Part shown: one piece after another, positions 9,458 to 62,855 of the stretch
Numbering within the stretch: the first letter of the stretch is position 1
Layout: the number at the start of each line of letters is the position of its first letter
DNA from: an uncultured bacterium
GTDB lineage: Bacteria > Patescibacteriota > Dojkabacteria > J137
DNA length: 64,000 bases
Assembly (NCBI GenBank): GCA_963700155.1
Contig: OY969472.1
Location: 2,058 to 66,057 of the forward strand
Direction: 5' to 3'
Made by a program: the position numbers and the translations under genes
The notes under the pieces: generated by a model
The model's database searches: none
Told to the model about the DNA's origin: nothing
Seen by the model: only the letters and a program-made list of their open reading frames with translations

Positions 9458-9464
9458 TAATAGT

Positions 9465-9887: not shown

Positions 9888-9944
9888 TAATTGGAAACAA
9901 TTTATTTTTTATAATAACATAATTATTTTCCAAGAAAAAATTAT

Positions 9945-38188: not shown

Positions 38189-38998
38189 TTACAATTTTGC
38201 AATATTAACAGTTTTCATTTTAAAATACTGAGTTCCTGCGGCGCCTCCTTGTGCAGTTAATTCACCAGAAAGTGCAACTTCATCATCAGCTTTTAGATTT
38301 GCTACGAAAGGTATTCCACTAATAAATGACTCAGGAACTAAATAGTTAACACAAGGAGGCGCCGGATTTGCACATGAATTAAATACATAATTAGATTTAG
38401 TTGAAACATCTGGATCAACTTCTTTATCTACATATTTAGCTATAACATTAATTAAAATATCCCCATTTAAAACAAAATATTCATTTCCTGCTGCATTACC
38501 TGCAGGTGAAGGTACAATCTGCCCAGAAATAAGAACTGGCATTGTGTCTTGAAGTGAGCTCAAAATAGGATAGTCAGATTTTGTTGATGCATCAAGTAAA
38601 TAATGGTAACAAACTGATAAATTATTATCGCAATAATCGAAAGAATAATAATCAGTACCAGCAATTTGCACAGTTGTTGAACTATAAGTTGTTCTTTTGT
38701 CTGTTATTGTATCAGCATTAGTATATGAAACAGGCGTACTCACTGGATTTTGGTTTGAACTATTGTTTGATGATGAATTATTATTTTGGTTTGTAGGTGC
38801 ATTATTATTATTTTGTAAAAGTAAAAATAAGACTATGACTACTATCACAACTATTATTAATACAAACCCTCCTACAATTATTATCATTTTGTTTCTTGGC
38901 GAATTATTATTTACACTATTTGCAACAGTTAAATTTGGTTGAGTCATTTCTTTATTTTCGACTCCAGATATATTATTTTGGTTTGTTTGTGTGTCCAT
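38189..38998 (-). CDS. secreted or membrane-anchored hypothetical protein with an Asn/Ser-rich low-complexity linker
   Basis: N-terminal TM helix (IIIVGGFVLIIVVIVVIVLFLLL), an NQNNNSSSNNSSNQN tract, and two related C-terminal subdomains. Confidence 0.45.
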   Translation of the reverse strand: MDTQTNQNNISGVENKEMTQPNLTVANSVNNNSPRNKMIIIVGGFVLIIVVIVVIVLFLLLQNNNNAPTNQNNNSSSNNSSNQNPVSTPVSYTNADTITDKRTTYSSTTVQIAGTDYYSFDYCDNNLSVCYHYLLDASTKSDYPILSSLQDTMPVLISGQIVPSPAGNAAGNEYFVLNGDILINVIAKYVDKEVDPDVSTKSNYVFNSCANPAPPCVNYLVPESFISGIPFVANLKADDEVALSGELTAQGGAAGTQYFKMKTVNIAKL

Positions 38999-39077
38999 AT
39001 TTTTTATAAAAAAAAGTATTACTTTATATAATACAACTAATTAAAAATCATCTCTATAAGTAGTGATATAATTCATC

Positions 39078-42600: not shown

Positions 42601-45600
42601 TGGCACAATTACACTAGGAGGAAGTAATAATCAAACATTGGCATGTAATAATGTAACATTCAATAAAGTAGTTATAAATAGAGATAATGTTGGGTCCGAT
42701 AATTCTGTAACCATAGGAAGTGACTGCAATCTCCCATTAGGGAATAACCCAACAGTTGTAGTAAATTTAAACTCATTTAATTCAAAAAAAGGAGATTTAA
42801 TACTTAATGGTTCATTGAGTGGGACTGGGACACTTACCATGGGAAATGGATATGGCGGTACATTAACCATGAACACAGGTAGTTCTATATCAAATTTTAG
42901 TTCCATATTTTCAAATAAAACTGCTCAGTTACTGCAAATTTCAGGAGCAAATGAAGATTTAAGTACTTTATCTTCAATGACTTGGAGTGGAGGAATAACA
43001 ATTACTTCTGGAAGTTTAACTTTACCTGATACAGCAAGCATTGGAGCATTAACAGTTAATGGAGGAACTTTAAATTCGACTAATGGAAGTTTAAATGAAT
43101 CTGGAACACTAACACTTTCATCTGGAACATTAAATGCCCCAACAGGGAATCTTAATTTGGCAGGTGCTATATCTTTCTCTTCGACCGGTACTTTCAATGC
43201 TGGAAGTGGGACAATTAATTTAAAAGGAGGAACAGTAACCCATAGCTGTAATAATAAGACTTTTAATCTTGTGACATTAAATAATACCGCAACTCAAACA
43301 GTGAATAGCAACTGCTCTTTTCCTTTAGGGAATGATCCTATAATAACTAACGGAATAACATTAGATAGTGGAACATTAAGTGGAAGTGGGACAATTACAA
43401 TGACTACTGGAATTCTGACTTTAAATACTGGCTACCATCTGACAGGATTTAGTGGATTTACGGGAACCTCAAATGGTCTAAGGACAAGTGGGGCTAGTAA
43501 TACAGTTGATTTCTCAAGTTATTCAACATTTGACTTAAACAGTTCGCTTACAGTCGATACTGGTGCAAGCTTAACATTTCCAAATTCTGGAGCTAACTTT
43601 AATATTACTTCACTTACTTTAAGTGGGAATGGAAGCATATTAAATGCATATAATGGTAATATGAACATTTCGGGTAGTCTTACTTTTTCTGATAACTCAA
43701 CATTTAATGCCGGTAGTGGTTCAATTACTTTTAATGGTTCAACCGCAACACATTCCTGTAATAATGCTACTTTTAACCTTGTTATCTTTAATAATTCAGG
43801 AACACAAACTGTTTCAAGTAACTGTAGTTTTCCATTAGGAAACAATCCTACTGTTGCAAATTCTTTAAATGTTAGTGGTGGTACATTAACTGGAAGTGGA
43901 ACATTTAACATGACTACTGGTACTCTAACTCTAACAAATGCAGCATTCTCAGGATTTATAGGTTTTAATGGAGGCATATTAATAGTAAGTGGCGCTTCTT
44001 CAACAGCAGATTTTAGTAGTTATACAACATTTGATACAACCGGAACAGTTCAAGCTCAAAGTAGCGCCACTTTAACTTTACCCAATAATGCTAACATCGG
44101 AGGAGATTTACAAGCATCTAGTACTATTAACGCTCCTTCAGGAAATTTATATGTCGGTGGATCAATTACAGGTGGCAGTAATTTTCATCATAATAATGGA
44201 ACAGTGATTTTAGACGGTACTAATCAAACTATTTCTACAGCAGCGTTGACTTTTTATAATCTAACCAAGATAGTTCCAACTGGATCTTCTCAAACGTTAA
44301 CATTCCCTGCAGGAACATCATCCACACAAACTATCGCTGGAGATCTTATACTACACGGTTATGATACATCAGCAAGATTAAATTTAAGAACATCATCTGG
44401 AACAACATACTTTCAAATCAATGCTCAAGGATCAAGAGATTTATTATATCTTGATATTAAAGATTCAAATAATATTAATACTGCAGCAATGCAAATGGGT
44501 GGGTCGGGAAGCCAAGACAGTGGACATAATATAGCTTGGAACTTCAGTAGTGCAACTCCAAATGATCCTTCAAATCTTGGACCAGCAAGTGTTATCAGCG
44601 CTGTTTATACTACAACTTTAAAACCAACTTTTAGCTTTACTATCTCAGACCCGAATCCATTAGATACTGTAAAGTATAATTTTCAAGTCGATGATAATAG
44701 TGACTTTAGCTCTCCTGTAATAGATTATTCTACTGTATTAGGATCCCAAGGATCTAAAAGTTTTACAGTTGGACAATCTGCAGGGACAGGTACGTATAAT
44801 GTTGGATCCAGCGGACAGTCATTAACTACTGGTGGATATTACTGGAGAGTAAATGCAACTGATAATAATGGATTAATTTCAAACTATACTACTGCTAATG
44901 GTGGAGCTATTGCGTTTTATATTGATTCTGTGGCACCCGCTACATTTACTCCTACTCTAAACGTAACTAGTCCTACTCAAAACAGAACACCTACAGTAAC
45001 TTTCAATACAACTGACAATGTTGGAGTTGACCATTATCAGGTAAAAGTTGATTCAGGAAGTTTTTCAACTCATACTAGTCCATATACAATTCCAACTTTA
45101 AATGCAGGAGATCATACAATTACTGTTAGAGCTTATGATACAACTTCAAATTATACTGATGGGGTTGTAATGATAACAGTAGAAGTTAATCCACCAGTAG
45201 CATTTTCACCAACATTAAACGTATCTAACCCTACAAATAACACTTCTCCGATTCTTACATTTAGTACAACTGATGGTGCAGGAATAGATCACTATGAAGT
45301 AAAAATAAATTCTGGAAGTTTTTCTACTCAATCATCACCTTATCAGTTACCAACATTAACTCAAGGAAGTTATACATTCACGGTAAGAGCATACAATATT
45401 AATGATGTATACACTGATGGAAGTGTAAGTACTTATATAGATACGAGTGCACCAAACAATTTTACTCCTACTTTGAATGTGGGAAATTATACAAATAATC
45501 AAACTCCGACTTTAAGTTTTGTTACTGCAGATAATCACCAGCTTGGTCACTATGAAGTTGATATTGATGGGGGTGGCTTCACGGCCCAGACTAGTCCATA

Positions 45601-48600
45601 TGTGTTACCAACATTAAGTGAAGCCGCCCATTCGATAACAGTTATAGCATATGATGCTGCAGGAAATTCAAAAACTGGAACAGTGGTGAATGTGACTGTT
45701 GACATTACAGCCCCAGCTTCTTTTACGCCAACATTAGATGTAACTTCACCTACAAGCAACACAAGACCAACAGTCACATTCACCACAACAGATAACAATG
45801 TAGTTAATCATTATGAAATAAAAATCGACTCTGGAAGTTTTACTACTCAATCATCACCATATCAGCTTGATCCGCTTGATTATGGTGATCATACAATTAC
45901 TGTAAGAGCTTTTGATATTGCGGGAAATTATACAGATGGAGATATAATAGATTTATTTGTAGATAACAATGGGCCTGATGCTTTTATTCCTACATTAAAT
46001 GTAGTTTCACCTACAACAAATACTTCTCCTACAGTTTCATTTTCTACAACAGATGATACTGGAATAGATCATTATGAAGTTAAAGTTGATTCAGGGAGCT
46101 TTTTAGAACAGGAAAGTCCTTATACTGTAGATGAGTTAACTGAAGGTTCACATACAATAACTGTTAGAGCTTTTGATACTTTAGGAAACTATACTGATGG
46201 AAATGTAATAATTGTAATTGATTTAACCAAACCTAACGCATTTTCACCAACATTAAATACTGGAAGTTTTACTTCTAATACAAGACCAACAGTAAGTTAC
46301 GGTACAACAGATAATGTTGGAATTAACCATTATGCTGTCAAATTAGATTCAGGTAGTTTTGGTACACATTCTAGTCCTTATCAATTACCGACTTTATCAG
46401 AAGGCTCTCATTCGATAACAGTCAGAGCTTATGATAGTGCTGGCAATTACAGAGATGGAACAACTTTAGCTGTAACAATTGACTTAACAGTTCCAAATAA
46501 CTTTACCCCAACTTTAAATGTAACATCACCTACTATAAATACGACTCCAACAGTTTCATTTAGTACTACAGATAACTTTGGAATTAACTACTATAGAGTT
46601 CAGGTAGATAATGGCAGTTTTTATACTACAACAAGTCCTTATCAAGTACCTCCTTTATCAAATGGAGATCATACAATTACAGTAAGAGTTTATGATAAAG
46701 CATCTAACTATAAAGATGGATCAGTCAACGTTACTGTAAATAGAACCTCACCAGATCCATTTACACCAACATTAAATGTTACTAGTCCAACTAATGATTC
46801 AACACCAATTTTAAGCTTTAGTACTACTGATGCAATGACATCAATAGATCATTATGAAGTTAAAGTAGACAATGGAAGTTTTTCTATTCAGACTAGTCCA
46901 TATCAACTACCAAATTTATTTCAGACAAACTTAAATACTCCACCTCATACAATTACTGTAAGAGCTTACAATACTATTGATAATTTCACAGATGGCACTG
47001 TAAGTTTATACGTCGATACTACTTTACCAACTATTAACTATTCTGCACCTATAAAGATTAAAAATTCAGATATTACAAATACTACCTTCTCAATTAGTGA
47101 TAACTTAGGAATTAACAAAGATAATACATCTATTACAGGTGGTGTGTTTACATGCAATCAAGGATCAGTTATTGGTGTTGGATGTAGTGGAACAATTACG
47201 AATAGCGGGACTGTTAGTATTACAGCTACAGATAATGCAGGAAGTTCAAGAACTGTGAATGTTACTGGATATATTATAGATCAGGTTGCCCCTGAAATTA
47301 CAATTACAGCGCCAACAAAGAATTCTGCTACAACAATAACAGACACTACTCTTTTTGTTACTGATAATATCCAAATCACTGTTGATAAAGTAATAGCTGT
47401 ATCAGGCGGTACAATCATTTGTACCCAAACCAGTCAGACACGTGTAGATTGTACCGCCTCTGTTTCAGACACCGGTGATTTAGTAATAAATGCTAATGAC
47501 ACAGCAGGAAACGCTGATGCTTTAACTGAAAGTGGTTATGTGGTAACTGCTACACCACCAGCACCTTTCCAGCCATCACTTAACACTACAGCTTATACTA
47601 ATGATACTGCTCCAATATTATTCTTTTCTACAACAGATGCAGATGGGATAGATCATTATGAAGTAAAAATAAATAATGGATCATTTACAACACAAATTAG
47701 TCCATATCAACTCCCTATTCAATCTGCAGGATTTAAAACTATAACAGTTAGAGCTTACGATACTCAAGGTAACTTTAGAGACGGTTCAATTGGTGTGACA
47801 ATAGACACTTCATCTCCAGCAGCTTTTACTCCTATACTTAATGTTTCAAGTCCTACAAATAATACAACACCTATAGTCTCATTCTTCACTACTGATAATA
47901 ATGGAATTGATCATTACGAAGTACAAGTTGATGGAGGATCTTTCAGCACTCAAGTAAGTCCATATCAACTTCCAGAATTAGTTGAAGGAGATCATATTAT
48001 TACGGTAAGAGCATTTAATATTGTTGGAAATTATACTGATGGGAGTGTTGATTTAACAGTGGACTTAACACCACCAGAATCTTTCACACCAATTATTACC
48101 CCTGGAACAATAACAAATATAACAAACCCTGAATTAACTTATTCAACAACTGATAATATTGCAGTTAGTCACTATGAAGTTCAAGTTGACTCTGGGATGT
48201 TCTCAATTCAAGCTAGTCCTTACACTGTTCCAACTGTACCTGAAGGAGATCATACTATGACTGTTGTAGCTTACGATACTGCGGGAAATTCAACAACCGA
48301 AATGGTTGGGGCAATAGTTGATCAAAGTGCTCCTGTAATTAGTTATTCTGCTCCAACTAGAGTCAAAAACTCTAACATAACAAATACAACTATAACTGTA
48401 ATAGATGATGCAGCAATTGATGTTTCAAATGTCACTGCAAGCGGTGTTGGTATAATAAATTGTACTCAAACTTCTAGTACTCGAGTTGATTGTACTTCAA
48501 ACATAGCGAGTTCAGGAACGTTAACAATAAATGCCGAAGATACAGTAGGATATACTTCAAGTGAAGATATTGATGGTTATGTAATTGAAACTATAGCTCC

Positions 48601-50599
48601 AGAAATAACAATAGCTGCACCAACAAAAAGTGCAAACAATACTATAACTGACACAATTATCAAAGTTACAGATAATTATCAAATAAATGCAAGTGGAGTG
48701 AATGCGGCAGGTGGTGTTTTAGATTGTGTTCAAACCAATAGTAAAGAAGTAAACTGTTCAGTGTCTATTCCAGTTAGTGGAGATCTAATAATAACTGCAA
48801 CTGACGTTGCAGGAAATGAAGCAACAAAAACAGAATCAGATTATCAGGTTACCTCTGGGGTACCTGCCGCATTCACTCCAACTCTAAATACCGGAGCATA
48901 CACTCATAACACGACTCCTATTGTAGGTTTCTTTACAACTGATCAAGATGGTATTAATCATTATGAAGTTAAAATTGATGATGGGAGTTTCTCAACACAA
49001 ACTTCTCCTTATCAACTTCCTGAACTCCAAGAAGGATTCCATACAATCGTAGTCAGAGCCTTCAGCAATAATGGAAGTTTTAGAGATGGTAGCATTTCAG
49101 TAACAATAGACTTGACTAACCCTACTAACTTAAAAATAGAGTTAAATACAGAAAATCCAACAAATAATCCGAGACCAATAATTACTTTCACAGCAGATGA
49201 TGAAAATGGTATTGGTCATTTTGAAGTAAAAGTAGCAAGTGATGGAGGTACATTTGTAACTGCAGATTCCCCATACCAAGTTCCTGATAATTTAGAAGAT
49301 GGTGATCATATAGTAACTGTTAGAGCATTTGATAAAGCTGATAATGCGATAGAAGATAGTACAAGTTTTACTTTAGATACTACAAAACCAACTGGTTCTA
49401 TAGAAATTAACAATGGAGAAAATAAAACAAGCATACAAAAAGTAAATCTTCAATTAACAGCTGATGACGTAGGAGTTGGAATAAAATCTATGATAATTTC
49501 TGAATACTCAGACTTTCATTCTTCGAATTATGAGCAATATTCATCAACAAAAGAATGGACTTTATCAAATGAAAAAGGTGTAAAAACTATTTATGTGAAG
49601 TTTCGAGACAAAGCTGGTAATGAATCTGAAGTTTATTCAGCTTCAATAGCTTATGATCCTAGTGGTCAATTCAACTTCCCTGGTATTCCAGGTGAAGAAC
49701 AACCGCAATCAGTTCTTATTAATACAACAAATGCAGTAGATGCAACTTTACTTACTCTTGCCGTTGGAACAATAGCAACAAACCTTTTTGCGAGTCCAAA
49801 TATAATTTTATACGGTATCTTTATTATCCGTGACCGAAAGAAAAGAAGACCTTGGGGAATTGTTTATGATCAAAATACTATGGAACCAATACCATTTGTA
49901 ACAGTAAGGCTTTATTCAGCTGAAAATAATAAATTAATTGCCCAAAAGATTACTGATTTTGAAGGCAAATTCGGATTCATCGTAAATAAAGGCGATTATA
50001 TTTTAGAAGTACTACACTCTGATTATCTCTCATATAAAGAAAATTTCACTTACGATGAATCTGAAGGAATACTTCAAAAAGATATTTCATTAAGCAAAAA
50101 TTCAAGTAAAGCAGGAGAGTATAGAAGAACTTTAAGAGAAAAATTATATAAAGCAAATACTGTAATTGTTTATCTTGGATTAATATTCTCAGTGATTGTA
50201 TTCTTGATTAATAGAACTACTTTCACTACCATCATTCTTTTGTTATACATAGTCCAATTTATAATTGTTTATTTACTAAATAGAAGAAAAAAACAAGAAT
50301 GGGGATTTGTTTATGATATTGCTACAGGATTAAGAATTAAAGGAGCCTTTGTAAGAATTTATACAAAAGAAGAAATCAAACAGCTCGACGTACAGATGAC
50401 AGATATTAACGGAAGATATTTCTTTAATCTAAAGTCTGGTGAATATTTAATATCAGTAAACGCTGAAGGATATAAGTTCCCAGCAGATAGCGTTAGTCAA
50501 AAACATATTTTTGTATCTGAATCTGGACAAAATTTTATGGAAGTTAAAATAGTTAAAAATAAACCTATAAATTTAGAGATACCTTTAGAGACAATTTAA
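39689..50599 (+). CDS. giant (3636-aa) multidomain membrane-anchored protein with an N-terminal CheY-like receiver domain
   Basis: Residues ~8-120: receiver (REC) fold with the DD pair and the acceptor Asp (IVIVDKSLPKHNGL). Residues ~170-245: two hydrophobic segments. Residues ~250-1700: Gly/Thr/Ser/Asn-rich parallel-beta-helix-like repeats (GSGTLT, NNVTFNKVVIN). Residues ~1735-3235: about 15 tandem Ig-like repeats of roughly 95 aa (FTPTLNVTSPT...IDHYEVKVDSGSF...GDHTITVRAYD.AGNYTDG). C-terminus: TM helices alternating with two CarboxypepD_reg-like domains (WGIVYD..., WGFVYD...DINGRYFF). It is one uninterrupted ORF. Confidence 0.85.
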   Translation: MEENTENKNIILLNDDLTIRIVLKNLLHQYFDKNVKIYSSAEALQGLGLIFILKSDIVIVDKSLPKHNGLNIVDYIKSNEKLKKVKTKVIVLGEGKEDSSIPNEYKYIDTTDENFPGTLVNYVKTVIPEYVSKINKVNSLISKLGKNVVKFSNKSDKIIANDKGRFFPMTPWLKWVYYQFLSSVNLTLFSFLVGKFPDENKEQQKFDIESNFRKNLPGIAIGLTMLFLTSITAFAIGGTVITSSLVLTQNVQSATARTWDGGGSQDSCGGNLGDENKWSCAENWNPDGVPGSSDTITFNGTSTKNSVIDASFAGTVNNITIASGYTGTITQARSLTASGTYSQAAGTFNSENQSLTVGFFTLSGGSFTAPSTNMTIYSMMTVTGSPSFNANNGTVNFTLGYLTISCGNITFNKVTITNAGYVVVESDCNLPLGNNPTLSWDYRQNFLLSGTLTGSGTLTATSATTSGKYFYLEPGSALVGFSGLNVGNFYVANTDADFSSYTTFSVSGYVGQSSGTFKMPTITGTNGIQDLTLSGGTFRAPPGNLNINHEINISASAAPGFDANGGTINFISASSRYLTCNNAVFNKVTINTNQFVVVYAGCNFPLGNNPTITWSGSQNFILDGTLSGTGTLTTVGGTTSGKQFFLDPGSSVTGFTNYSIGGYFTISSGVTFDSTALGGTLSVASGYTISMASGTVSLNGTANPTIGTLGISGGTFIGPPSNLTINGNLSISGGAFTAPTGSMNVYGNISISGSSTFDANGGTITLLGTNTQTMGCNNVTLNKVVINKGNIGADNSVTIGSDCSLPLGNDPTVIVNLNSFNSKKGDLILNGSLSGTGTLSTGNGSGGNITLGSTGSINGFSGFNSPYMGLIVSGTTLDMSGYTTFMMAGSSHLTNLSVQSGGTLKLPTPTGSVTVSTISTTGGSTFIGAGGSIYDNGSLSISGGTFVAPSGTLSLVGNISISGNPTFDANGGTITLGGSNNQTLACNNVTFNKVVINRDNVGSDNSVTIGSDCNLPLGNNPTVVVNLNSFNSKKGDLILNGSLSGTGTLTMGNGYGGTLTMNTGSSISNFSSIFSNKTAQLLQISGANEDLSTLSSMTWSGGITITSGSLTLPDTASIGALTVNGGTLNSTNGSLNESGTLTLSSGTLNAPTGNLNLAGAISFSSTGTFNAGSGTINLKGGTVTHSCNNKTFNLVTLNNTATQTVNSNCSFPLGNDPIITNGITLDSGTLSGSGTITMTTGILTLNTGYHLTGFSGFTGTSNGLRTSGASNTVDFSSYSTFDLNSSLTVDTGASLTFPNSGANFNITSLTLSGNGSILNAYNGNMNISGSLTFSDNSTFNAGSGSITFNGSTATHSCNNATFNLVIFNNSGTQTVSSNCSFPLGNNPTVANSLNVSGGTLTGSGTFNMTTGTLTLTNAAFSGFIGFNGGILIVSGASSTADFSSYTTFDTTGTVQAQSSATLTLPNNANIGGDLQASSTINAPSGNLYVGGSITGGSNFHHNNGTVILDGTNQTISTAALTFYNLTKIVPTGSSQTLTFPAGTSSTQTIAGDLILHGYDTSARLNLRTSSGTTYFQINAQGSRDLLYLDIKDSNNINTAAMQMGGSGSQDSGHNIAWNFSSATPNDPSNLGPASVISAVYTTTLKPTFSFTISDPNPLDTVKYNFQVDDNSDFSSPVIDYSTVLGSQGSKSFTVGQSAGTGTYNVGSSGQSLTTGGYYWRVNATDNNGLISNYTTANGGAIAFYIDSVAPATFTPTLNVTSPTQNRTPTVTFNTTDNVGVDHYQVKVDSGSFSTHTSPYTIPTLNAGDHTITVRAYDTTSNYTDGVVMITVEVNPPVAFSPTLNVSNPTNNTSPILTFSTTDGAGIDHYEVKINSGSFSTQSSPYQLPTLTQGSYTFTVRAYNINDVYTDGSVSTYIDTSAPNNFTPTLNVGNYTNNQTPTLSFVTADNHQLGHYEVDIDGGGFTAQTSPYVLPTLSEAAHSITVIAYDAAGNSKTGTVVNVTVDITAPASFTPTLDVTSPTSNTRPTVTFTTTDNNVVNHYEIKIDSGSFTTQSSPYQLDPLDYGDHTITVRAFDIAGNYTDGDIIDLFVDNNGPDAFIPTLNVVSPTTNTSPTVSFSTTDDTGIDHYEVKVDSGSFLEQESPYTVDELTEGSHTITVRAFDTLGNYTDGNVIIVIDLTKPNAFSPTLNTGSFTSNTRPTVSYGTTDNVGINHYAVKLDSGSFGTHSSPYQLPTLSEGSHSITVRAYDSAGNYRDGTTLAVTIDLTVPNNFTPTLNVTSPTINTTPTVSFSTTDNFGINYYRVQVDNGSFYTTTSPYQVPPLSNGDHTITVRVYDKASNYKDGSVNVTVNRTSPDPFTPTLNVTSPTNDSTPILSFSTTDAMTSIDHYEVKVDNGSFSIQTSPYQLPNLFQTNLNTPPHTITVRAYNTIDNFTDGTVSLYVDTTLPTINYSAPIKIKNSDITNTTFSISDNLGINKDNTSITGGVFTCNQGSVIGVGCSGTITNSGTVSITATDNAGSSRTVNVTGYIIDQVAPEITITAPTKNSATTITDTTLFVTDNIQITVDKVIAVSGGTIICTQTSQTRVDCTASVSDTGDLVINANDTAGNADALTESGYVVTATPPAPFQPSLNTTAYTNDTAPILFFSTTDADGIDHYEVKINNGSFTTQISPYQLPIQSAGFKTITVRAYDTQGNFRDGSIGVTIDTSSPAAFTPILNVSSPTNNTTPIVSFFTTDNNGIDHYEVQVDGGSFSTQVSPYQLPELVEGDHIITVRAFNIVGNYTDGSVDLTVDLTPPESFTPIITPGTITNITNPELTYSTTDNIAVSHYEVQVDSGMFSIQASPYTVPTVPEGDHTMTVVAYDTAGNSTTEMVGAIVDQSAPVISYSAPTRVKNSNITNTTITVIDDAAIDVSNVTASGVGIINCTQTSSTRVDCTSNIASSGTLTINAEDTVGYTSSEDIDGYVIETIAPEITIAAPTKSANNTITDTIIKVTDNYQINASGVNAAGGVLDCVQTNSKEVNCSVSIPVSGDLIITATDVAGNEATKTESDYQVTSGVPAAFTPTLNTGAYTHNTTPIVGFFTTDQDGINHYEVKIDDGSFSTQTSPYQLPELQEGFHTIVVRAFSNNGSFRDGSISVTIDLTNPTNLKIELNTENPTNNPRPIITFTADDENGIGHFEVKVASDGGTFVTADSPYQVPDNLEDGDHIVTVRAFDKADNAIEDSTSFTLDTTKPTGSIEINNGENKTSIQKVNLQLTADDVGVGIKSMIISEYSDFHSSNYEQYSSTKEWTLSNEKGVKTIYVKFRDKAGNESEVYSASIAYDPSGQFNFPGIPGEEQPQSVLINTTNAVDATLLTLAVGTIATNLFASPNIILYGIFIIRDRKKRRPWGIVYDQNTMEPIPFVTVRLYSAENNKLIAQKITDFEGKFGFIVNKGDYILEVLHSDYLSYKENFTYDESEGILQKDISLSKNSSKAGEYRRTLREKLYKANTVIVYLGLIFSVIVFLINRTTFTTIILLLYIVQFIIVYLLNRRKKQEWGFVYDIATGLRIKGAFVRIYTKEEIKQLDVQMTDINGRYFFNLKSGEYLISVNAEGYKFPADSVSQKHIFVSESGQNFMEVKIVKNKPINLEIPLETI
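44930..49390 (+). repeat. intragenic tandem array of about 285-bp (95-aa) Ig-like domain repeats
   Basis: The nucleotide-level periodicity has about 15 copies, interrupted twice by a different domain type (at ~47020-47560 and ~48330-48850). Confidence 0.7.
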
Positions 50600-51083: not shown

Positions 51084-51419
51084 ATGAAAATAATTATAAA
51101 TCTTGTATTGAGTACACTTACAGTAATAGTTTCAGCATATATTATTCAAGGGGTTACCGTTGATGGTTTTTTAACTGCGCTTGTAGTTGCAGTATTACTA
51201 GGAATAGTAAATAGTATTATTATGCCTATAATAAAATTACTAACTCTTCCAATAACTGTTTTAACATTAGGATTATTCAGCCTTGTAATTAACGCTTTAA
51301 TGGTTTTATTAGTTGCTTGGATAGTACCTGGTTTTATGGTTAGTGGATTCTTACCAGCATTATTATTCGCAATTTTGCTCTCACTAATTAATACTATTAT
51401 TTTTAAAATAGCAGATTAA
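51084..51419 (+). CDS. DUF360-family (YvlD / phage-holin-4-like) four-TM membrane protein
   Basis: 111 aa with four hydrophobic helices and a conserved pattern typical of DUF360 proteins. It shares an ATGA overlap with msrB. Confidence 0.5.
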   Translation: MKIIINLVLSTLTVIVSAYIIQGVTVDGFLTALVVAVLLGIVNSIIMPIIKLLTLPITVLTLGLFSLVINALMVLLVAWIVPGFMVSGFLPALLFAILLSLINTIIFKIAD

Positions 51420-51817
51420 TGAAATATAACGATTTAACAGAAGAAGAAAGAAAAGTGATTGAAGATAAAGATACTGAATCTCCCTTCACAGGTGAATATG
51501 ACAATTTTTATGAACCAGGAACATTCATCTGCAGAAGATGTAATAATCCCCTATTTACTTCAAAGGCAAAGTTTGATGCACATTGTGGTTGGCCTGCTTT
51601 TGATGAAAGTTTCCCAAATTCATTGAAAAGAATATATGATAATTCTCTCGGAATGCAAAGAACTGAAATCGAATGTGCAAACTGCAGAGCTCACCTTGGA
51701 CATGAATTTAAAGGAGAGCATTTAACCGATAAAAATGTAAGAGAATGTGTGAATTCTTTATCCATAAAATTCATTCCCGAAAGAAAAGAACTTCCCCCAA
51801 TAATTTCTACTAATTAA
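51419..51817 (+). CDS. msrB: peptide methionine (R)-S-oxide reductase MsrB
   Basis: The zinc-binding pattern CxxC...CxxC with CGWPAF, and the catalytic region RTEIECANCRAHLGHEF. Confidence 0.9.
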   Translation: MKYNDLTEEERKVIEDKDTESPFTGEYDNFYEPGTFICRRCNNPLFTSKAKFDAHCGWPAFDESFPNSLKRIYDNSLGMQRTEIECANCRAHLGHEFKGEHLTDKNVRECVNSLSIKFIPERKELPPIISTN

Positions 51818-57987: not shown

Positions 57988-58735
57988 AAACCCAAATGAT
58001 ATAACCGCATCAATTTACGATAAAGTAATTAAACCACTAAAACCGGGTGAAGTTACAGATGAAGAAATTTCTTTAGTTAATTCTTTGGTCGAACCAGGTT
58101 CAAAAATACTAGACATAGGAGGAGGAACTGGCAGACATTCAATAACTTTAGCCAAAGAAGGATATAAAATTTCTGTTGTAGATTCATCCCTTGGGATGTT
58201 GAATAATTTAACTCCTAAAATAGAAAAACTAAAACTTAAAAAAGAAAATATACAAGTTTTCTATAATGATATTTTTGATAAAGATTTTGACGAAGACTCT
58301 TTTGATTTTATTATACTTTTTTGGAATAGTTTTAATGAGATTGTATTAACAGACGAACAGGCAGAATTATTTTTTGAAAAAGTAAGTAAATGGTTAACTA
58401 AAGATGGTGGTATTTTAATTAATATAGATGATTCTGAAAAAGTAAATCCAGCTAATTTTGATTTTAAAACAACTTACCAAGAAGACGGTTACACCTATAA
58501 ACTTCATTGGAAAACTAAAAGCTATGATTCAAAAACTAATACCTCTGTATCACTTGAATCAATTGATATGTTAGATAAAGATAACAAACTTTTAGATAGT
58601 TTTAAAAATAAGATTATTCAACGATATTGGAGTCTTGAAGAATTAGAGAACTTTGCGAGGAATTCAGCTTTTAAAATTGAAAGGTTGAAATTTAAACTTA
58701 ACGAGGAACTTTATCTTTTATTGACTAGAAGCTGA
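57932..58735 (+). CDS. class I SAM-dependent methyltransferase
   Basis: Motif I ILDIGGGTGRHS and an acidic loop VVDSS. The start is uncertain: ATG 57932, GTG 57971 and TTG 57980 all overlap the 3' end of epmA in another frame. Confidence 0.6.
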   Translation: MQIIFQILITFLQVNGLNKNPNDITASIYDKVIKPLKPGEVTDEEISLVNSLVEPGSKILDIGGGTGRHSITLAKEGYKISVVDSSLGMLNNLTPKIEKLKLKKENIQVFYNDIFDKDFDEDSFDFIILFWNSFNEIVLTDEQAELFFEKVSKWLTKDGGILINIDDSEKVNPANFDFKTTYQEDGYTYKLHWKTKSYDSKTNTSVSLESIDMLDKDNKLLDSFKNKIIQRYWSLEELENFARNSAFKIERLKFKLNEELYLLLTRS

Positions 58736-60048
58736 ATTCCTCTACATGCAGCATATCTTCAGTAACCTTCTCTTTTTTTAATATCTTTTTAAGTGAATCG
58801 GTCATAATTTTTGGACCACATAAATAAATCATATACGATTTTAGCGGGTCTTTTAGATACTTTTTCAGGAGATCAGCTGTAATAAAACCAAATTCGTGAG
58901 TTGGATCTTTAGATTTCTCTTTGCTAAGAACATAAATACATTTAAAATTCGGATTCTTTTGCATTGCATTATCCAATTTAGATTTAAATGCAATATCTTT
59001 ATCATCTTGACTACCATAAAACATCCATATTTTTTCTGGATAATCAGCGGGATTAAATTCAATATCTTCAATTAAATCTAAGAATGGAGTTGCTCCAATT
59101 CCTCCAACAATTAAAACCAATTTCTCTTTAGTTTTATAAGCTTCATCAACAAAAGTCCCATAAGGTCCATCCATTAGAACTTCTTGCCCTATTTCCAAAT
59201 CTTTTAAACTTACACTATATTTCCCAAGAAATTTTACTCCAAAAGTAATATCATGGTTGTTATCATGATAATCCGAAACACTAAATGGATGAGCTTCTCC
59301 AAAAACCTGTCTTTTGCAAATATAAATATTGCCCAGGTCTGGATTTCAATACTTTATTAATTGGTGACAATGTTAAATCTATCACATTAGGAGTATCGTA
59401 AACTATAGATTTAACTTTGTATTTTGCCCTCCCTAAAATACCAAACTGAAATAATATTCTATATATAACAATAAAAATAAATATTACAAACAAAATATCA
59501 AAATAAGTTTTAAGAAGAGGACTTTCTAAAAAGATTCCAGAATTAACACTATGGAAATAAACTAATACAAATAGAAAATAATTTAATAGATGAATCATCT
59601 TCCATGGCCTGAATCCAATCTTTTCTTTAAGAAAAGCACTCAAAACCCAAATAACTGCTAATATTATAAATCCTATTGTACCAACGGATACCCAAAAACT
59701 ATATTGAGTTTCAAAACCCAAAATTGTTAAATTAAACCCCTGAATCCAGTTGTCTATAAGCATTAAGACTGGATGAAGTGTAATAAAGATAAAGCCATAT
59801 TTTGCTAAAAGTCCATGAAGCTCATTACTCCAAGTTAATTCTACAGTGAAAATTCGTAAAACTGATCTTGTACCAATTACAAATTCCCACCACAACATTA
59901 GATATCCAACCAAACCTAAAATATCAGCAATTATCCAGAGTTCATCACCTTCGTCAAAAAACCCAGTTAGAATAAACTTGTATGAAAAAATAAACAGAAT
60001 AAGAAAACTTAAAATGAATACTGTGACTAAGATTATTTTTCCTTTCAT
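58725..60048 (-). pseudogene. NOX/ferric-reductase-family flavocytochrome (FRE transmembrane domain plus FAD- and NAD-binding domains), split by a frameshift in a homopolymer run
   Basis: The upstream ORF (59281-60048) has 6 TM helices with two His pairs (HGLLAKYGFIFITLH, HLLNYFLFVLVYFH) and ends RPGQYLYLQKTGFWRSSSI*. The frame of the downstream ORF (58725-59198) stays open upstream and reads QVFGEAHPFSVSD...GPYG...LVLIVGGIGATP. The two parts join if one T is removed from GGTTTTTGG (forward-strand CCAAAAACC at 59299-59307). Confidence 0.6.
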
Positions 60049-60062
60049 AAAAGTATTTTACA

Positions 60063-60959
60063 TTAATTCAAAACACCTTTGTATCCTTTACTTCTAAAAA
60101 ATTTTTTATTAGGAAAGACTATTAAATACTCTACCTCAAGATTTTTAGCGATACTATCCGCTTTTTCTGGTTCTGAAATAAATATTGCAGTACTTGCTAA
60201 ATCAGCATTAATTATACTTTTAGACTGAGTAAATACAGCTGAAGTATTATTAACGCTACCTCCTGAATTGAAATCTATTAAATGATGATAGACTTCTCCA
60301 GTTCTTCTATCTTTCCATGCTCTTCGAGTTGGAGAAGAACATGCAATTGCTTCATTAGCTATCTTAATAGAACCGATCATTTCAGTATCATCAAAAGGAT
60401 TTTCCAAGGCAAACTCATGTTCATTGTCATTAGAGTCTTTAACATAAATATCACCACCACCATTAATTAAGTAATTTTTTAATTTGAATTCATTAAGACT
60501 CTTTTTAAATTTGTTAATTAACCATCCTTTTCCAATACCTCCTAGATCAATTCTGGCATCTTTAGATATTCTTATTAAATCCTTGGTTAAAGTATAAATT
60601 TTCAAATCATCTGGTGAATAGTTTTTAGGTTTGCTTGAAAATGTATAATTAGCATCATAGCCTAAATCTTCTAATTGAGTACCTACACAAACATTGAAAT
60701 GACCATCTGTTAATTCTCTGACTTTCTCAGAAGTTTTTAACATTTCATATAACTCAAGTGGAAAATCCGAAATAGATTTTTCTCTATTAAGTTTTGAAAT
60801 GAGGCTGTTTTCTTTAAATCGTGAATATTTTTCATCAAATTCATGCAAGATATTGAGTATGTTATTCTGGACTTCAGAAAACAGCCTCTCTTCTATTTTG
60901 TCTGGGATAGTTATCCACCAATGAGTACCAATTCCCTCAAATTTAAAAGTGTCTGTCAT
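60063..60959 (-). CDS. apbE: FAD:protein FMN transferase (ApbE family)
   Basis: FEGIGTHWW, SLISKLN, DLGGIGKGWLIN, LINGGGDIY, YHHLIDFNSG and INADLASTA match the ApbE motif series. Confidence 0.85.
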   Translation of the reverse strand: MTDTFKFEGIGTHWWITIPDKIEERLFSEVQNNILNILHEFDEKYSRFKENSLISKLNREKSISDFPLELYEMLKTSEKVRELTDGHFNVCVGTQLEDLGYDANYTFSSKPKNYSPDDLKIYTLTKDLIRISKDARIDLGGIGKGWLINKFKKSLNEFKLKNYLINGGGDIYVKDSNDNEHEFALENPFDDTEMIGSIKIANEAIACSSPTRRAWKDRRTGEVYHHLIDFNSGGSVNNTSAVFTQSKSIINADLASTAIFISEPEKADSIAKNLEVEYLIVFPNKKFFRSKGYKGVLN

Positions 60960-60965
60960 AGAATT

Positions 60966-61373
60966 TTAATTAACTTGTGACTGAATATCTTTTAAAGCTT
61001 CTAAAAATGCTGCAGAAGTAGCTGATGAGCCACTTACAGCATGAAGGTCAAAATTGTTTTTTATCGATTTTCCTACTACTAAATTATTAATACTTTCTGA
61101 GAAATTACTTTGATATCTACTGCTAGTTTTATTACTTGAAGTATTTTTTACAACAAGATTATTTATTGTGTCACCCTCTAAATAAACAGTAACATCAATC
61201 TGCTCTGTACCCTCTGGTGAAGCATACTTTTTTGTTGCTGTATATGAATTACCAGAATTATTAATTATATTATTTTCTTTGACAGTAGAATTATTATTTA
61301 ATATTAAAATAATTACTATTACCATTACTAAAGCGATTATTACCCCAGCTACAATTAAAGTTCTGTTTTTCAT
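60966..61373 (-). CDS. membrane-anchored FMN-binding-domain protein, a probable ApbE substrate
   Basis: N-terminal TM helix. C-terminal AVSGSSATSAAFLEAL resembles the FMN_bind flavinylation motif ((S/T)GA(T/S)(S/T)). It lies immediately upstream of apbE on the same strand. Confidence 0.5.
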   Translation of the reverse strand: MKNRTLIVAGVIIALVMVIVIILILNNNSTVKENNIINNSGNSYTATKKYASPEGTEQIDVTVYLEGDTINNLVVKNTSSNKTSSRYQSNFSESINNLVVGKSIKNNFDLHAVSGSSATSAAFLEALKDIQSQVN

Positions 61374-61431
61374 AGAGATAAATTAACTAAATAAGAAATT
61401 ATTTACAATTTAATATATAAATGATTCTCTT

Positions 61432-62196
61432 TCAATCAAAAATATATTTAAAAACACTTAGAATCGCAATTGCAGCAGTTTCACTTCGCAGAATAGTATT
61501 ACCAAAACTAACAAACTCGAGATTAGAATTTTTTGAAAGTGAATGCTCATTTGGTGAAAAGCCACCTTCAGGTCCTATGATATAAGCTATTTTTTTATAT
61601 TTTTCTTCATTACTTTCAAAAAATTCTTTTAAATTCATTGTAGTTTGCGATTCTTTAATATTGTCTCTAGGAATTGTGAAAAAGAAAACGATATCAAATT
61701 TATCTTTTAAATTTATTGCTTCTTTAAAACTTATCGGTTCTGATATATCAGGGATTTTAACTCTTTCAGATTGTTTTGATGCTGCGATTGTTACCTTTTT
61801 CCATCTTGATAGTCTTTTTAAAGCAACATCTCTTTTAATCTGAGAGAATTCAGTTTCAATCGGAACAATATTATCGATTCCTAATTCAGTAGTTTTTTCA
61901 ATAACCAAGTCGAATTTATTAGATCTTAAAAGCGATTGAAACAAGGTGATCTCTACACCACTTTCTTCGCTAAAATCTGCAACTTTAAGAATTTTCTTAA
62001 TATGAGCTGTAACAAATTCTCTACCAACTACATTCAATTCTGCTAAATATTCCTTTTCTCCATTAAAGAGAATTATTTCATTCCCTTTTTTCAATCTCAA
62101 AACATTTCTTATATGTTTGATATCACTATCTTGTAGTTTTACACTACTGTTGATTGTTAAATTAGTTCTTTCAGTAAAAAATCTATTTAGTCTCAT
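61432..62196 (-). CDS. rsmE: 16S rRNA (uracil1498-N3)-methyltransferase RsmE
   Basis: N-terminal MRLNRFF...HIRNVLRLKKGNEIILFNG PUA-like region and a C-terminal SPOUT knot. It shares an ATGA overlap with the upstream gene. Confidence 0.85.
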   Translation of the reverse strand: MRLNRFFTERTNLTINSSVKLQDSDIKHIRNVLRLKKGNEIILFNGEKEYLAELNVVGREFVTAHIKKILKVADFSEESGVEITLFQSLLRSNKFDLVIEKTTELGIDNIVPIETEFSQIKRDVALKRLSRWKKVTIAASKQSERVKIPDISEPISFKEAINLKDKFDIVFFFTIPRDNIKESQTTMNLKEFFESNEEKYKKIAYIIGPEGGFSPNEHSLSKNSNLEFVSFGNTILRSETAAIAILSVFKYIFD

Positions 62197-62855
62197 GATT
62201 GATTATTTTGACTTTCAATTTGATTAATTAAATCCCCAACTTTTGTTTTTAAGTCACCAAATGATGTCAAAGTAAATACTTTCCCATAGATCAGAACTGT
62301 TGGTGTTGATTGAGTCCCAGTCAAACTTATTACTTTTTGTTTTTCTTGTTTAATAATATTTTTTACCTCATCACCATTCATATCTGTTTGAAATTTATTA
62401 ACATCCAACCCAAGTTTTTGAGCAAGTTGAACTGGATCAACAGGATTTCCATAAAAAGATTTATCTGTATCACTATAAGTAAAGTCTGTATTATTTGGAT
62501 CTCTTTGATAAGAAACCCATTTAAATAAGTCATAACTGTAATCATCAAATTTACCCTGCATTCTTGCTGCTTCAGAAGCATATGCATAAGTTATTGAAGA
62601 ATCTGCCAGAAAAGGAAGATTCTTAGTTTCAACATCAACTTTATCACCATAGGTTGTTTTTACATCTCTCACATAATTTTCGAAATCTGCACAATGAGGA
62701 CAGTTATAATCGACATAAACATCAACTTTCACAGGTAAAGTTTCATTTACTGCAGTAATGCTGTTATTTTTTTGATTACTTAAAAGTACAAGAAAACCAC
62801 CACCTAAAACTAATATTAAGACTATCCATACTACACTTGGTATTTTCATAAACAA
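62193..62855 (-). CDS. DsbA-like thiol:disulfide oxidoreductase (thioredoxin fold), membrane-anchored
   Basis: N-terminal TM helix. CPHC active site within VDYNCPHCADFENYV. Confidence 0.75.
   Translation of the reverse strand: MFMKIPSVVWIVLILVLGGGFLVLLSNQKNNSITAVNETLPVKVDVYVDYNCPHCADFENYVRDVKTTYGDKVDVETKNLPFLADSSITYAYASEAARMQGKFDDYSYDLFKWVSYQRDPNNTDFTYSDTDKSFYGNPVDPVQLAQKLGLDVNKFQTDMNGDEVKNIIKQEKQKVISLTGTQSTPTVLIYGKVFTLTSFGDLKTKVGDLINQIESQNNQS

What the first reader, a model, noticed from the sequence alone, without database searches (positions are those of the whole stretch)
58725..62855. Putative extracytoplasmic flavin-based redox module: NOX/ferric-reductase flavocytochrome, ApbE, membrane FMN-binding protein and a DsbA-like oxidoreductase
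Seen in sequence: these genes run on the minus strand in the order DsbA-like (CPHC), RsmE, FMN_bind protein with N-terminal anchor, ApbE, and a six-TM bis-heme FRE domain fused to FAD- and NAD-binding domains. Established knowledge: ApbE flavinylates extracytoplasmic FMN_bind domains (NqrC, RnfG, Listeria PplA). FRE/NOX proteins move electrons from cytoplasmic NAD(P)H across the membrane. Inference: a NAD(P)H to heme to flavoprotein electron route to the cell surface, an alternative to the Ndh2/DmkA-based Gram-positive EET chain, possibly feeding extracellular thiol or methionine-sulfoxide repair. msrB and msrA are in the same window. The NOX gene is interrupted by a frameshift at a T5/A5 run (59299-59307).
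Basis: partly seen in the sequence, partly recalled or inferred. Interest (0 to 1): 0.6.

Follow-up and report, generated by a model that had tools for sequence, protein, structure and literature searches.

The report
Broken NOX–ApbE–flavoprotein electron-export gene cluster
An ultrasmall (CPR/Patescibacteria) bacterium carries a three-gene set, of a kind already predicted in 2021, for passing electrons from NAD(P)H across the membrane to a surface flavoprotein. Its key membrane gene is broken by one extra base, and its two closest relatives have lost that gene altogether.

Summary
The last is split by a +1 frameshift at a T5 run (59301-59305). Removing one T restores a 440-aa protein that passes every published NOX sequence filter.

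Only three genes form a conserved unit: FMN_bind protein, ApbE and NOX. Among 42 related ApbE loci from CPR bacteria and DPANN archaea, 36 carry the FMN_bind gene and 21 the NOX gene. DsbA and RsmE appear only in close, fully syntenic relatives, and they stay when NOX is lost. MsrA and MsrB are cytoplasmic and lie 7-58 kb away.

This architecture is the "MsrQ-like" flavinylation system of Méheust et al. 2021 (eLife), so it is not a new route.

The frameshift cannot be settled here because no second assembly exists.
- For real decay: the two closest relatives lack both NOX and the FMN_bind gene, and a Gracilibacteria relative also has a broken NOX.
- Against: the repaired protein shows no other damage.

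One unexplained point is that ApbE in this whole clade has no export signal, while its presumed substrate is exported.

Verdict: a new member of a known, still uncharacterised kind, possibly non-functional. Interest is modest.

The parts
58725..60048 (-). NOX/ferric-reductase-type flavocytochrome b gene. It has six TM helices with two bis-His heme sites, then FAD- and NAD(P)H-binding domains. It is interrupted by a +1 frameshift; the repaired product is 440 aa.
   Evidence: Pfam on the two fragments and on the repaired ORF: Ferric_reduct, FAD_binding_8, NAD_binding_1. Best solved relative is SpNOX 8qq7, E 7e-20. Motifs found: HPFSV@253, GIGATP@316, H78-x13-H92, H153-x12-H166, CGP@410. Full-length alignment with 11 intact relatives, 28-42% identity.
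59301..59305 (-). T5 homopolymer (A5 on the + strand) where the reading frame shifts. It lies at codon ~249/250, three codons before the FAD-binding HPFS motif. The upstream frame ends at TAG 59281-59283.
   Evidence: Sequence read directly. The three-frame translation and the one-base deletion that restores the ORF. The junction aligns without a gap to relatives (TGFGEAHPFS vs KFGETHPFT, DFGEAHPFT).
60063..60959 (-). ApbE (FAD:protein FMN transferase), 298 aa, with no signal peptide or lipobox.
   Evidence: Pfam PF02424, E 6.6e-43. All 33 positions invariant across the 30-sequence alignment, including DLGGIGKG and NGGGDI, are by definition shared by the window protein. The ORF starts 6 bp after the FMN_bind gene's stop. 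Window residue 8 aligns with residue 21 of the signal-less E. coli construct 4xgw. There is no N-terminal hydrophobic stretch in this protein or in its homologs at the ~40 related loci.
60966..61373 (-). Small membrane-anchored FMN_bind-like protein ('FMNb'), 135 aa. The TM helix spans about residues 5-25 and the C-terminal domain is predicted to face outside.
   Evidence: Pfam FMN_bind 22.0 bits, at the cutoff. A family profile of 25 homologs hits the solved FMN-binding domain 8p2a at E 2e-4, with the motif aligned. 10 of 25 family members hit PF04205. Homologs carry a TM anchor or a lipobox.
61023..61034 (-). Predicted flavinylation motif S114-G115-S116-S117 of FMNb, with S117 as the predicted FMN acceptor. 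G115 and T119 are invariant in the family and S117 is at least 90% conserved.
   Evidence: Alignment A2 gives the family motif [VI]xG[AS]SxT. It aligns with SGAT of 8p2b (dvh--SGATvss) and with VSGATYT of 8p2a. It matches the [S/T]GA[S/T]-like motif quoted in PMC8238504.
61432..62196 (-). RsmE 16S rRNA methyltransferase. It is a neighbour and is judged not to be part of the module.
   Evidence: Pfam PUA_4 + Methyltrans_RNA. It is present next to ApbE only in L008, L009 and L015.
62193..62855 (-). Membrane-anchored DsbA-like thiol-disulfide oxidoreductase (CPHC). It is a neighbour and is judged not to be part of the module.
   Evidence: Pfam Thioredoxin_4/DSBA. PDB hits to Gram-positive DsbA proteins. 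It is found near ApbE only in L008 and L015, and it is retained in L008, where NOX and FMNb are absent.

Best explanation
The conserved unit is three genes, not five: FMNb, ApbE and a NOX-type flavocytochrome b. It is a CPR (Dojkabacteria-like) instance of the 'MsrQ-like' flavinylation-associated transmembrane electron-transfer systems.

Proposed mechanism:
1. Cytoplasmic NAD(P)H reduces FAD in the C-terminal dehydrogenase domain.
2. Electrons pass to the inner heme b (H78/H153).
3. They pass on to the outer heme b (H92/H166).
4. They reach FMN covalently bound to Ser117 of the membrane-anchored FMNb on the outer face. ApbE installs that FMN from FAD.
5. An unidentified extracellular acceptor (O2, Fe(III) or another oxidant) takes the electrons. 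This would let a fermentative cell without a respiratory chain dispose of reducing equivalents or reduce iron.

Shown here: domain content, cofactor-binding motifs, the flavinylation-type motif, the predicted outward orientation of FMNb, and conserved three-gene linkage. Inferred: every electron-transfer step, its direction and the acceptor.

In this genome as assembled, NOX carries a one-base insertion just before the FAD motif, so the chain has no working entry point. The two closest relatives have deleted both NOX and FMNb, so this lineage is most likely in the course of losing the module. I put the chance that the frameshift is real at about 0.55.

DsbA, RsmE, MsrA and MsrB are unrelated neighbours.
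For: - Gene identities.
- All published NOX sequence filters (Hajjar 2017, PMC5676040) are met by the repaired ORF.
- FMNb family motif and anchors.
- Linkage: in 42 CPR/DPANN-type ApbE loci, the only recurrent neighbours within 5 kb are FMNb (36 loci) and the NOX family (21 loci). The same order FMNb-ApbE-NOX is seen in L010, L013 and L015.
- Literature definition of the class.
- Decay: L015 (ApbE 44% identical) has GT-DsbA-RsmE-FMNb-ApbE-NOX(intact)-MT. L008 (62%) has GT-DsbA-RsmE-[unrelated 87 aa]-ApbE-MT. L009 (64%) has RsmE-ApbE-MT. Neither L008 nor L009 holds a NOX or FMNb relic at tblastn E<1.
- A second, independent broken NOX lies beside FMNb-ApbE in Gracilibacteria L043, with HPFS changed to SRPFS.
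- NOX is the only evidently disrupted gene among ~55 in the window, despite 547 A/T runs of 5 or more bases. That argues against a generally error-prone assembly.
Against: - No member of this class has been characterised biochemically in the papers read, so the electron path is by analogy.
- ApbE here and across the clade lacks any export signal, while FMNb is predicted to be exported. The flavinylation step is therefore topologically unexplained.
- FMNb reaches only the Pfam cutoff. Its single-sequence structure model is weak (pLDDT 63.5) and has no significant fold match.
- The repaired NOX keeps 37 of 40 positions that are invariant in relatives, within the range of intact relatives. The lesion is therefore either very recent or an assembly error at a homopolymer.
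- FMNb-ApbE pairs often occur without NOX nearby, and NOX homologs occur without ApbE (L004-L007). The partnership is frequent but not obligatory.
Confidence: 0.7

Rival explanations
1. The frameshift is a homopolymer assembly error. The genome really has T4, NOX is intact, and the three-gene module works as in relatives such as L015.
For: There is a single lesion at a 5-base homopolymer. The repaired protein keeps all cofactor motifs. It deviates at only 3 of 40 otherwise invariant positions, all conservatively, like intact relatives. FMNb and ApbE next door are intact. The source is a single 1.14-Mb contig.
Against: No other broken gene was seen among ~55 genes and 547 A/T runs of 5 or more bases. 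The two closest relatives have lost NOX and FMNb entirely. Another CPR lineage has an independently broken NOX.
Confidence: 0.45
2. NOX and the FMNb-ApbE pair are separate functions that merely sit together. NOX would act alone as an SpNOX-like NAD(P)H oxidase that reduces O2 directly. FMNb would be served by another membrane partner, or would bind and shuttle flavin.
For: SpNOX reduces O2 without a partner (PMC5676040) and is the closest solved relative. 15 of 36 FMNb-ApbE loci have no NOX within 5 kb. The NOX homologs in L004-L007 sit among ribosomal genes, without ApbE or FMNb. L008 and L009 keep ApbE after losing NOX.
Against: NOX is the only other recurrent neighbour, in 21 of 42 loci and in both same-strand and convergent arrangements. 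L001-L003 place NOX directly before two FMNb paralogs. NOX and FMNb are lost together in L008 and L009. Many loci are cut by contig ends, so the NOX count is a lower bound.
Confidence: 0.2
3. One reading: the flavin chain feeds the DsbA-like oxidoreductase, or extracellular methionine-sulfoxide repair.
For: The genes share a strand with gaps of -4 to 58 bp, and no terminator-like site was found between them. Méheust et al. report other flavinylation clusters that include thioredoxin-like proteins, in their DsbD/DUF3570 systems.
Against: The phmmer scan found a DsbA-like ORF near ApbE only in the fully syntenic L008 and L015, and no DsbA family recurred as a neighbour across the 42 loci. DsbA and RsmE persist after NOX and FMNb are deleted. 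MsrA and MsrB have no signal peptide and lie 58 and 7 kb away, in other gene groups. No MsrP-type enzyme was seen. By established knowledge, DsbA-type CPHC proteins are oxidants that need an electron acceptor, not a reductant.
Confidence: 0.05
4. The leaderless ApbE flavinylates a cytoplasmic target, and FMNb is either not its substrate or is modified before export. The cluster would then not be a conventional extracytosolic flavinylation system.
For: No signal peptide is possible: an in-frame stop lies just upstream, and this holds across the clade. Cytosolic ApbEs exist, for example the one serving Klebsiella fumarate reductase (PMC12052999). ApbE is kept in L008 and L009 without FMNb or NOX next to it.
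Against: FMNb is ApbE's most constant neighbour (36 of 42 loci) and conserves a flavinylation-type G[AS]SxT motif. No other FMN_bind-like ORF exists in the window.
Confidence: 0.15

Closest known systems
'MsrQ-like' flavinylation-associated electron-transfer systems (Méheust et al. 2021, eLife, PMC8238504)
   Same: [quoted passage not shown] The proposed route is NAD(P)H to heme to extracytosolic flavin.
   Different: That class was described mainly in Actinobacteria, and the paper calls the candidate phyla radiation strikingly underrepresented. Here ApbE is leaderless. FMNb is a divergent family at or below the Pfam threshold, with a Ser acceptor (G[AS]SxT). No VIT1 iron transporter is nearby. 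NOX is frameshifted.
SpNOX, Streptococcus pneumoniae NADPH oxidase (PDB 8qq7; PMC5676040, PMC11564096)
   Same: The single-chain architecture matches: six TM helices, bis-His on TM3 and TM5, HPFS and GIGxTP motifs, CGP, and a C-terminal aromatic residue. It is the best solved-structure match (E 7e-20).
   Different: The HMMER alignment covers only residues 121-433. SpNOX works alone with O2 as acceptor. No ApbE/FMN_bind partnership appeared in the passages retrieved from Hajjar 2017, and the SpNOX papers listed by the search hold no occurrence of 'ApbE'.
E. coli MsrPQ with Fre (MsrQ/YedZ)
   Same: It has a ferric-reductase-domain heme membrane protein that passes cytoplasmic reducing power to an extracytoplasmic partner.
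   Different: By established knowledge, MsrQ has no fused dehydrogenase domain and its partner is the molybdoenzyme MsrP. No MsrP gene was seen among the window ORFs examined. The partner here is a small flavinylated protein.
Listeria monocytogenes flavin-based EET (Ndh2, DmkA/B, EetA/B, PplA, FmnB)
   Same: An ApbE-type enzyme flavinylates a surface-anchored FMN_bind protein that hands electrons to outside acceptors. It is used by a fermentative organism for redox balance.
   Different: That system enters through NADH dehydrogenase and a demethylmenaquinone pool, and its FmnB is a lipoprotein. Here entry would be through a heme flavocytochrome with no quinone step, and ApbE is leaderless.
NqrC / RnfG flavinylated subunits
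   Same: They have an N-terminal TM anchor plus an FMN_bind domain, with the acceptor residue in an SGAT-type motif near the C-terminus.
   Different: By established knowledge, NqrC and RnfG are subunits of six-subunit ion-pumping complexes. No other Nqr or Rnf gene was found among the recurrent neighbours.

Membership tests
MsrQ-like flavinylation system (Méheust 2021 operational definition) | A PF01794 gene within five genes of an ApbE or FMN_bind gene | tested here: met
   Ferric_reduct (PF01794) lies directly downstream of ApbE, and FMN_bind directly upstream. Definition quoted.
MsrQ-like flavinylation system (Méheust 2021 operational definition) | [quoted passage not shown] | tested here: inconclusive
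   FMNb has an N-terminal TM anchor and several homologs have a lipobox, while ApbE has none. SignalP was not available.
MsrQ-like flavinylation system (Méheust 2021 operational definition) | C-terminal NAD-binding domain PF00175 on the PF01794 protein (typical: 1437 of 1797 clusters) | tested here: met
   Met only after repair of the frameshift. As assembled, the two domains lie in different frames.
NOX family (Hajjar et al. 2017 sequence filters) | [quoted passage not shown] | tested here: met
   HPFSV at 253 and GIGATP at 316 of the repaired ORF. Filters quoted.
NOX family (Hajjar et al. 2017 sequence filters) | Two His-x12/14-His pairs on separate TM helices, with 3-7 TM helices in all | tested here: met
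   H78-x13-H92 and H153-x12-H166, with about six hydrophobic helices. All four His are conserved in 11 relatives.
NOX family (Hajjar et al. 2017 sequence filters) | One uninterrupted polypeptide carrying both the membrane and dehydrogenase domains | tested here: not met
   A +1 frameshift at 59301-59305 splits the FAD domain.
NOX family | NAD(P)H-dependent reduction of O2 to superoxide | not testable with these tools
   This needs a biochemical assay.
ApbE / FAD:protein FMN transferase | ApbE domain with conserved FAD/Mg-binding motifs | tested here: met
   PF02424, E 6.6e-43. DLGGIGKG and NGGGDI are invariant in alignment A1. PDB ApbE hits down to E 1e-15.
ApbE / FAD:protein FMN transferase | Typical N-terminal lipoprotein or secretion signal placing it outside the cytoplasm | tested here: not met
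   No hydrophobic N-terminus. The start codon lies 6 bp after the upstream gene's stop. The same holds at the ~40 related CPR/DPANN loci.
FMN_bind domain (PF04205), ApbE substrate | Match to the domain profile | tested here: inconclusive
   22.0 bits against a cutoff of 22. 10 of 25 family members match at E<=0.01. The family profile hits FMN-binding domain 8p2a at E 2e-4.
FMN_bind domain (PF04205), ApbE substrate | [S/T]GA[S/T]-like flavinylation motif | tested here: met
   SGSS (S114-S117) in the window and G[AS]SxT across the family. It aligns with SGAT of 8p2a and 8p2b.
FMN_bind domain (PF04205), ApbE substrate | FMN_bind fold | tested here: inconclusive
   The single-sequence AlphaFold model has pLDDT 63.5. 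Its element order (three strands, helix, C-terminal helix) is compatible with the fold, but Foldseek against the PDB gave no hit with E<0.1.
FMN_bind domain (PF04205), ApbE substrate | Covalent FMN on the acceptor residue | not testable with these tools
   This needs mass spectrometry or in-gel fluorescence.
DsbA-like oxidoreductase as a module component | Conserved co-occurrence with FMNb-ApbE-NOX beyond close synteny | tested here: not met
   The phmmer scan found a credible DsbA-like ORF only in L008 and L015, and no DsbA family recurs among neighbours across 42 loci. It is retained where NOX and FMNb are deleted.
Listeria-type flavin-based EET | Ndh2 / EetA / EetB / DmkA genes linked to the flavinylated protein | tested here: not met
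   No such family is among the recurrent neighbours, and none was seen among the window ORFs examined. The whole genome was not available.

The most novel reading that the evidence does not exclude
CPR bacteria and DPANN archaea share a distinct variant of flavin-based electron export in which ApbE is cytoplasmic. The small lipoprotein or anchored FMN_bind protein would be flavinylated at its extreme C-terminal G[AS]SxT motif before or during export. These cells may be unable to supply FAD outside, so this would remove the need for extracellular FAD. Together with a NOX-type flavocytochrome, it would give organisms described as lacking electron-transport chains a minimal two-protein, quinone-free transmembrane electron outlet. 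That outlet appears to be gained and lost repeatedly.
Probability: 0.15. Interest if true: 0.65.

Novelty: new member of a known kind. Interest (0 to 1): 0.3.

Why it matters
If the module works in relatives with an intact gene, such as L015, L010 and L013, it would be one of very few membrane redox devices in CPR bacteria. These organisms are generally described as fermenters without electron-transport chains. The device could explain how some of them reoxidise NAD(P)H, reduce iron or handle oxygen at the cell surface.

The 2021 survey that defined this class reported CPR as underrepresented. No paper in the searchable library mentions both ApbE and Patescibacteria, so the spread of the FMNb-ApbE(-NOX) cluster across CPR and DPANN seems not to have been described.

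For this particular genome the practical message is more modest. The cluster is a known predicted type, it is probably inactive or being lost, and DsbA, RsmE and the Msr genes should not be annotated as part of it.

Tried and rejected
- **Independent copy of the frameshift site.** An exact-pattern scan of metagenome contigs, allowing T4-T7, found nothing. The 90% clusters of the window's ApbE, FMNb and NOX N-fragment each hold one member from one contig. The source contig was not retrievable by protein look-up. The site could therefore not be verified.
- **Word-indexed protein searches.** The search with FMNb returned only itself. The search with the repaired NOX missed the closest relatives, which were later found through ApbE-centred loci.
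- **Structure test of FMNb.** The single-sequence model was weak and Foldseek gave only insignificant hits.
- **Programmed frameshift or transcriptional slippage.** Rejected by inference. On GGU-UUU-UGG a +1 re-pairing is possible, but the next codon is neither a stop nor a rare codon. A T5 run is too short for efficient transcriptional slippage. All 11 relatives encode the junction in one frame.
- **Split two-component NOX (MsrQ + Fre style).** Rejected. The break lies inside the FAD domain, three codons before HPFS. The downstream frame has no ATG, GTG or TTG before HPFS, and its first listed start is TTG at 59198, beyond the motif.
- **A second FMN_bind substrate in the window.** The only other profile hit (38192-39040) matched just the TM helix and a low-complexity linker.
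- **Promoter and terminator scan.** Uninformative. It found 25 promoter-like sites against 33 expected by chance, and no terminator.
- **Other frameshifts in the window.** None was evident. Other same-strand overlaps are between distinct, complete genes.

Full report
**1. What is in the sequence**

The window is AT-rich (about 28-30% GC) and densely coded. On the minus strand, from 63970 down to 58725, the genes run in this order, separated by -4 to 58 bp:
- a GT1 glycosyltransferase;
- a membrane-anchored DsbA-like protein (CPHC);
- RsmE;
- a 135-aa protein with an N-terminal TM helix and a Pfam FMN_bind match exactly at the cutoff (22.0 bits);
- ApbE (E 6.6e-43);
- a ferric-reductase/NOX-type gene in two pieces.

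The minus strand reads aca ggt ttt t gga gaa gct cat cca ttt. The T5 run is at 59301-59305. Removing one T joins the two pieces into a 440-aa ORF with Ferric_reduct, FAD_binding_8 and NAD_binding_1 domains.

**2. The flavocytochrome**

The repaired protein meets all the sequence filters that Hajjar et al. 2017 used to define bacterial NOX proteins (filters quoted; tested):
- HPFSV at residue 253;
- GIGATP at residue 316;
- H78-x13-H92 and H153-x12-H166, on the third and fifth of about six hydrophobic helices;
- CGP at residue 410.

Its best solved relative is SpNOX (8qq7, E 7e-20). It aligns end to end with 11 intact relatives at 28-42% identity. The junction (TGF|GEAHPFS) aligns without a gap, and all four histidines are conserved.

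The frameshift falls at codon ~249/250, three codons before the FAD-binding HPFS motif. The assembled gene therefore cannot give a working dehydrogenase domain. It is also not a natural split into two subunits, because the first ATG, GTG or TTG in the downstream frame (TTG at 59198) lies beyond the FAD motif.

**3. The flavoprotein and ApbE**

Homologs of the small protein, here called FMNb, were collected from loci found through ApbE. They form a divergent family of about 135-215 aa.
- Each has an N-terminal TM anchor or a lipobox (...GC[ST]).
- Each has a C-terminal motif [VI]xG[AS]SxT. G115 and T119 are invariant and S117 is at least 90% conserved.

A profile of the family hits a solved FMN-binding domain (8p2a, E 2e-4), with GsSlT aligned on SGATYT. 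The window protein alone aligns its SGSS on SGAT of 8p2b. Ten of 25 family members reach Pfam FMN_bind at E<=0.01. By sequence, then, this is a divergent FMN_bind domain with a serine acceptor at S117.

Only a single-sequence model could be made (pLDDT 63.5). Its order of three strands, a helix and a C-terminal helix is compatible with the fold, but Foldseek found nothing significant.

ApbE carries the family's invariant motifs.

**4. Which genes belong together**

ApbE homologs are named Dojkabacteria or Saccharibacteria in public records. This places the organism in the CPR/Patescibacteria.

I scanned 42 CPR/DPANN-type ApbE loci for relatives of the window's genes and clustered all their neighbouring ORFs.
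- The only recurrent neighbours are FMNb (36 loci) and the NOX family (21 loci).
- NOX lies on the same strand as ApbE in some loci (L010, L013, L015) and convergent to it in others (L018, L020-L022, L045, L049).
- DsbA and RsmE appear only in L015, L008 and L009, which share the window's whole gene order from GT to the downstream methyltransferase.
- They are still present in L008 and L009, where NOX and FMNb are gone.

They are syntenic bystanders.

MsrB (51419-51817 +) and an MsrA-like ORF (55-576 -) have no signal peptides. They lie 7 and 58 kb away among unrelated genes. The extension of the module to thiol or methionine-sulfoxide repair is not supported.

**5. How this compares with what is known**

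Méheust et al. 2021 (PMC8238504) defined 'MsrQ-like' flavinylation systems as PF01794 proteins clustered with apbE and an FMN-binding gene. They found 1797 such clusters, and 1437 of them carry a C-terminal PF00175 NAD-binding domain. They proposed NAD(P)H as the cytosolic donor and, for the subset with VIT1, iron reduction. A 2024 follow-up discusses only the predicted heme sites.

What is less known is its presence in CPR and DPANN. The 2021 survey called CPR strikingly underrepresented. No paper in the searchable library mentions both ApbE and Patescibacteria.

**6. Is the frameshift real?**

No independent sequence exists. The 90% clusters of the three proteins have one member each, and a metagenome pattern scan found nothing.

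For a real lesion:
- The closest relatives by ApbE identity, L009 (64%) and L008 (62%), lack both NOX and FMNb and hold no relics of them. The more distant L015 (44%) keeps both in the same place. The lineage is therefore shedding the module.
- A Gracilibacteria locus (L043) has an independently frameshifted NOX in which the FAD-motif histidine is lost.
- No other gene of about 55 in the window is broken, although there are 547 A/T runs of 5 or more bases.

For an error, or a very recent event:
- There is a single one-base change in a homopolymer.
- The repaired protein keeps 37 of 40 positions invariant in relatives, no worse than intact relatives.

I put the chance of a real lesion at roughly 0.55. 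A programmed frameshift is unlikely. There is no stop or rare codon after the slippery UUU-U, the run is short, and all relatives are in frame.

**7. An unexplained point**

The ApbE here has no signal peptide, and neither do its homologs at the ~40 related CPR/DPANN loci.
- The start codon lies 5-15 residues before the first conserved motif.
- An in-frame stop lies just upstream.
- Window residue 8 aligns with residue 21 of the signal-less E. coli construct.

FMNb is predicted to be exported. Cytosolic ApbEs are known for cytosolic substrates, but that does not explain pairing with an exported substrate. Three possibilities remain open: flavinylation happens before export, ApbE leaves the cell by a non-classical route, or ApbE has another substrate.

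**8. Verdict**

This is a correctly observed gene cluster whose core is a CPR member of a known, predicted class of NOX/MsrQ-like flavinylation systems. In this genome it is probably inactive or decaying. The DsbA, RsmE and Msr links should be dropped.

Noticed in passing
window 60063-60959 (-); L008-L049 ApbE genes: The ApbE of this whole CPR/DPANN clade has no signal peptide or lipobox, with an in-frame stop just upstream of a start 5-15 aa before the first conserved motif. Its adjacent presumed substrate carries a TM anchor or lipobox. This topology mismatch is unexplained, and I found no mention of it in the papers read.
   Followed up: partly
L043:6057-7351 (+) (Gracilibacteria JAAUSE010000001.1): A second, independent frameshifted NOX gene lies directly upstream of FMNb-ApbE. 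It is split between TM6 and the dehydrogenase domain, and the FAD motif is changed from HPFS to SRPFS.
   Followed up: partly
L008:5741-6004 (+) and L009:247 (RsmE/ApbE junction): In the two closest relatives the FMNb slot holds an unrelated 87-aa acidic ORF (L008) or is absent altogether (L009). NOX is cleanly deleted between ApbE and the convergent methyltransferase. ApbE is kept intact in both.
   Followed up: partly
L027, L028, L033, L036, L040, L041, L058, L059: DPANN and other archaeal MAGs (labelled Micrarchaeota, Woesearchaeota or Methanosarcinales) carry the same FMNb-ApbE pair, with lipobox-bearing FMNb, as CPR bacteria. This suggests transfer between these two groups of ultrasmall organisms.
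   Followed up: no
L001:5220-7846 and 9329-10765: A NOX homolog (~30% identical) sits without ApbE. It is followed by two tandem FMNb paralogs and preceded by cytochrome-b5-domain proteins and an ECF sigma factor, with a DsbD/thioredoxin pair 5 kb downstream.
   Followed up: no
window 39689-50599 (+): A giant 3636-aa ORF lies in a stretch of higher GC (0.34-0.36 against about 0.28 elsewhere). It was not analysed.
   Followed up: no
window 51084-51817 (+) and 55-576 (-): MsrB (SelR) overlaps the stop of a 4-TM holin-family (Phage_holin_4_2) gene and is followed by a MarR regulator and two ABC exporter genes. An MsrA-like ORF (GGCFWC) lies at the far end of the window. Both Msr proteins are leaderless.
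   Followed up: partly
window 34420-34752 (+): A 110-aa ORF begins with a P-loop like that of thymidylate-kinase-type enzymes (LEGLDGTGKST). It is only about half the usual length, so it may be truncated or a short paralog.
   Followed up: no
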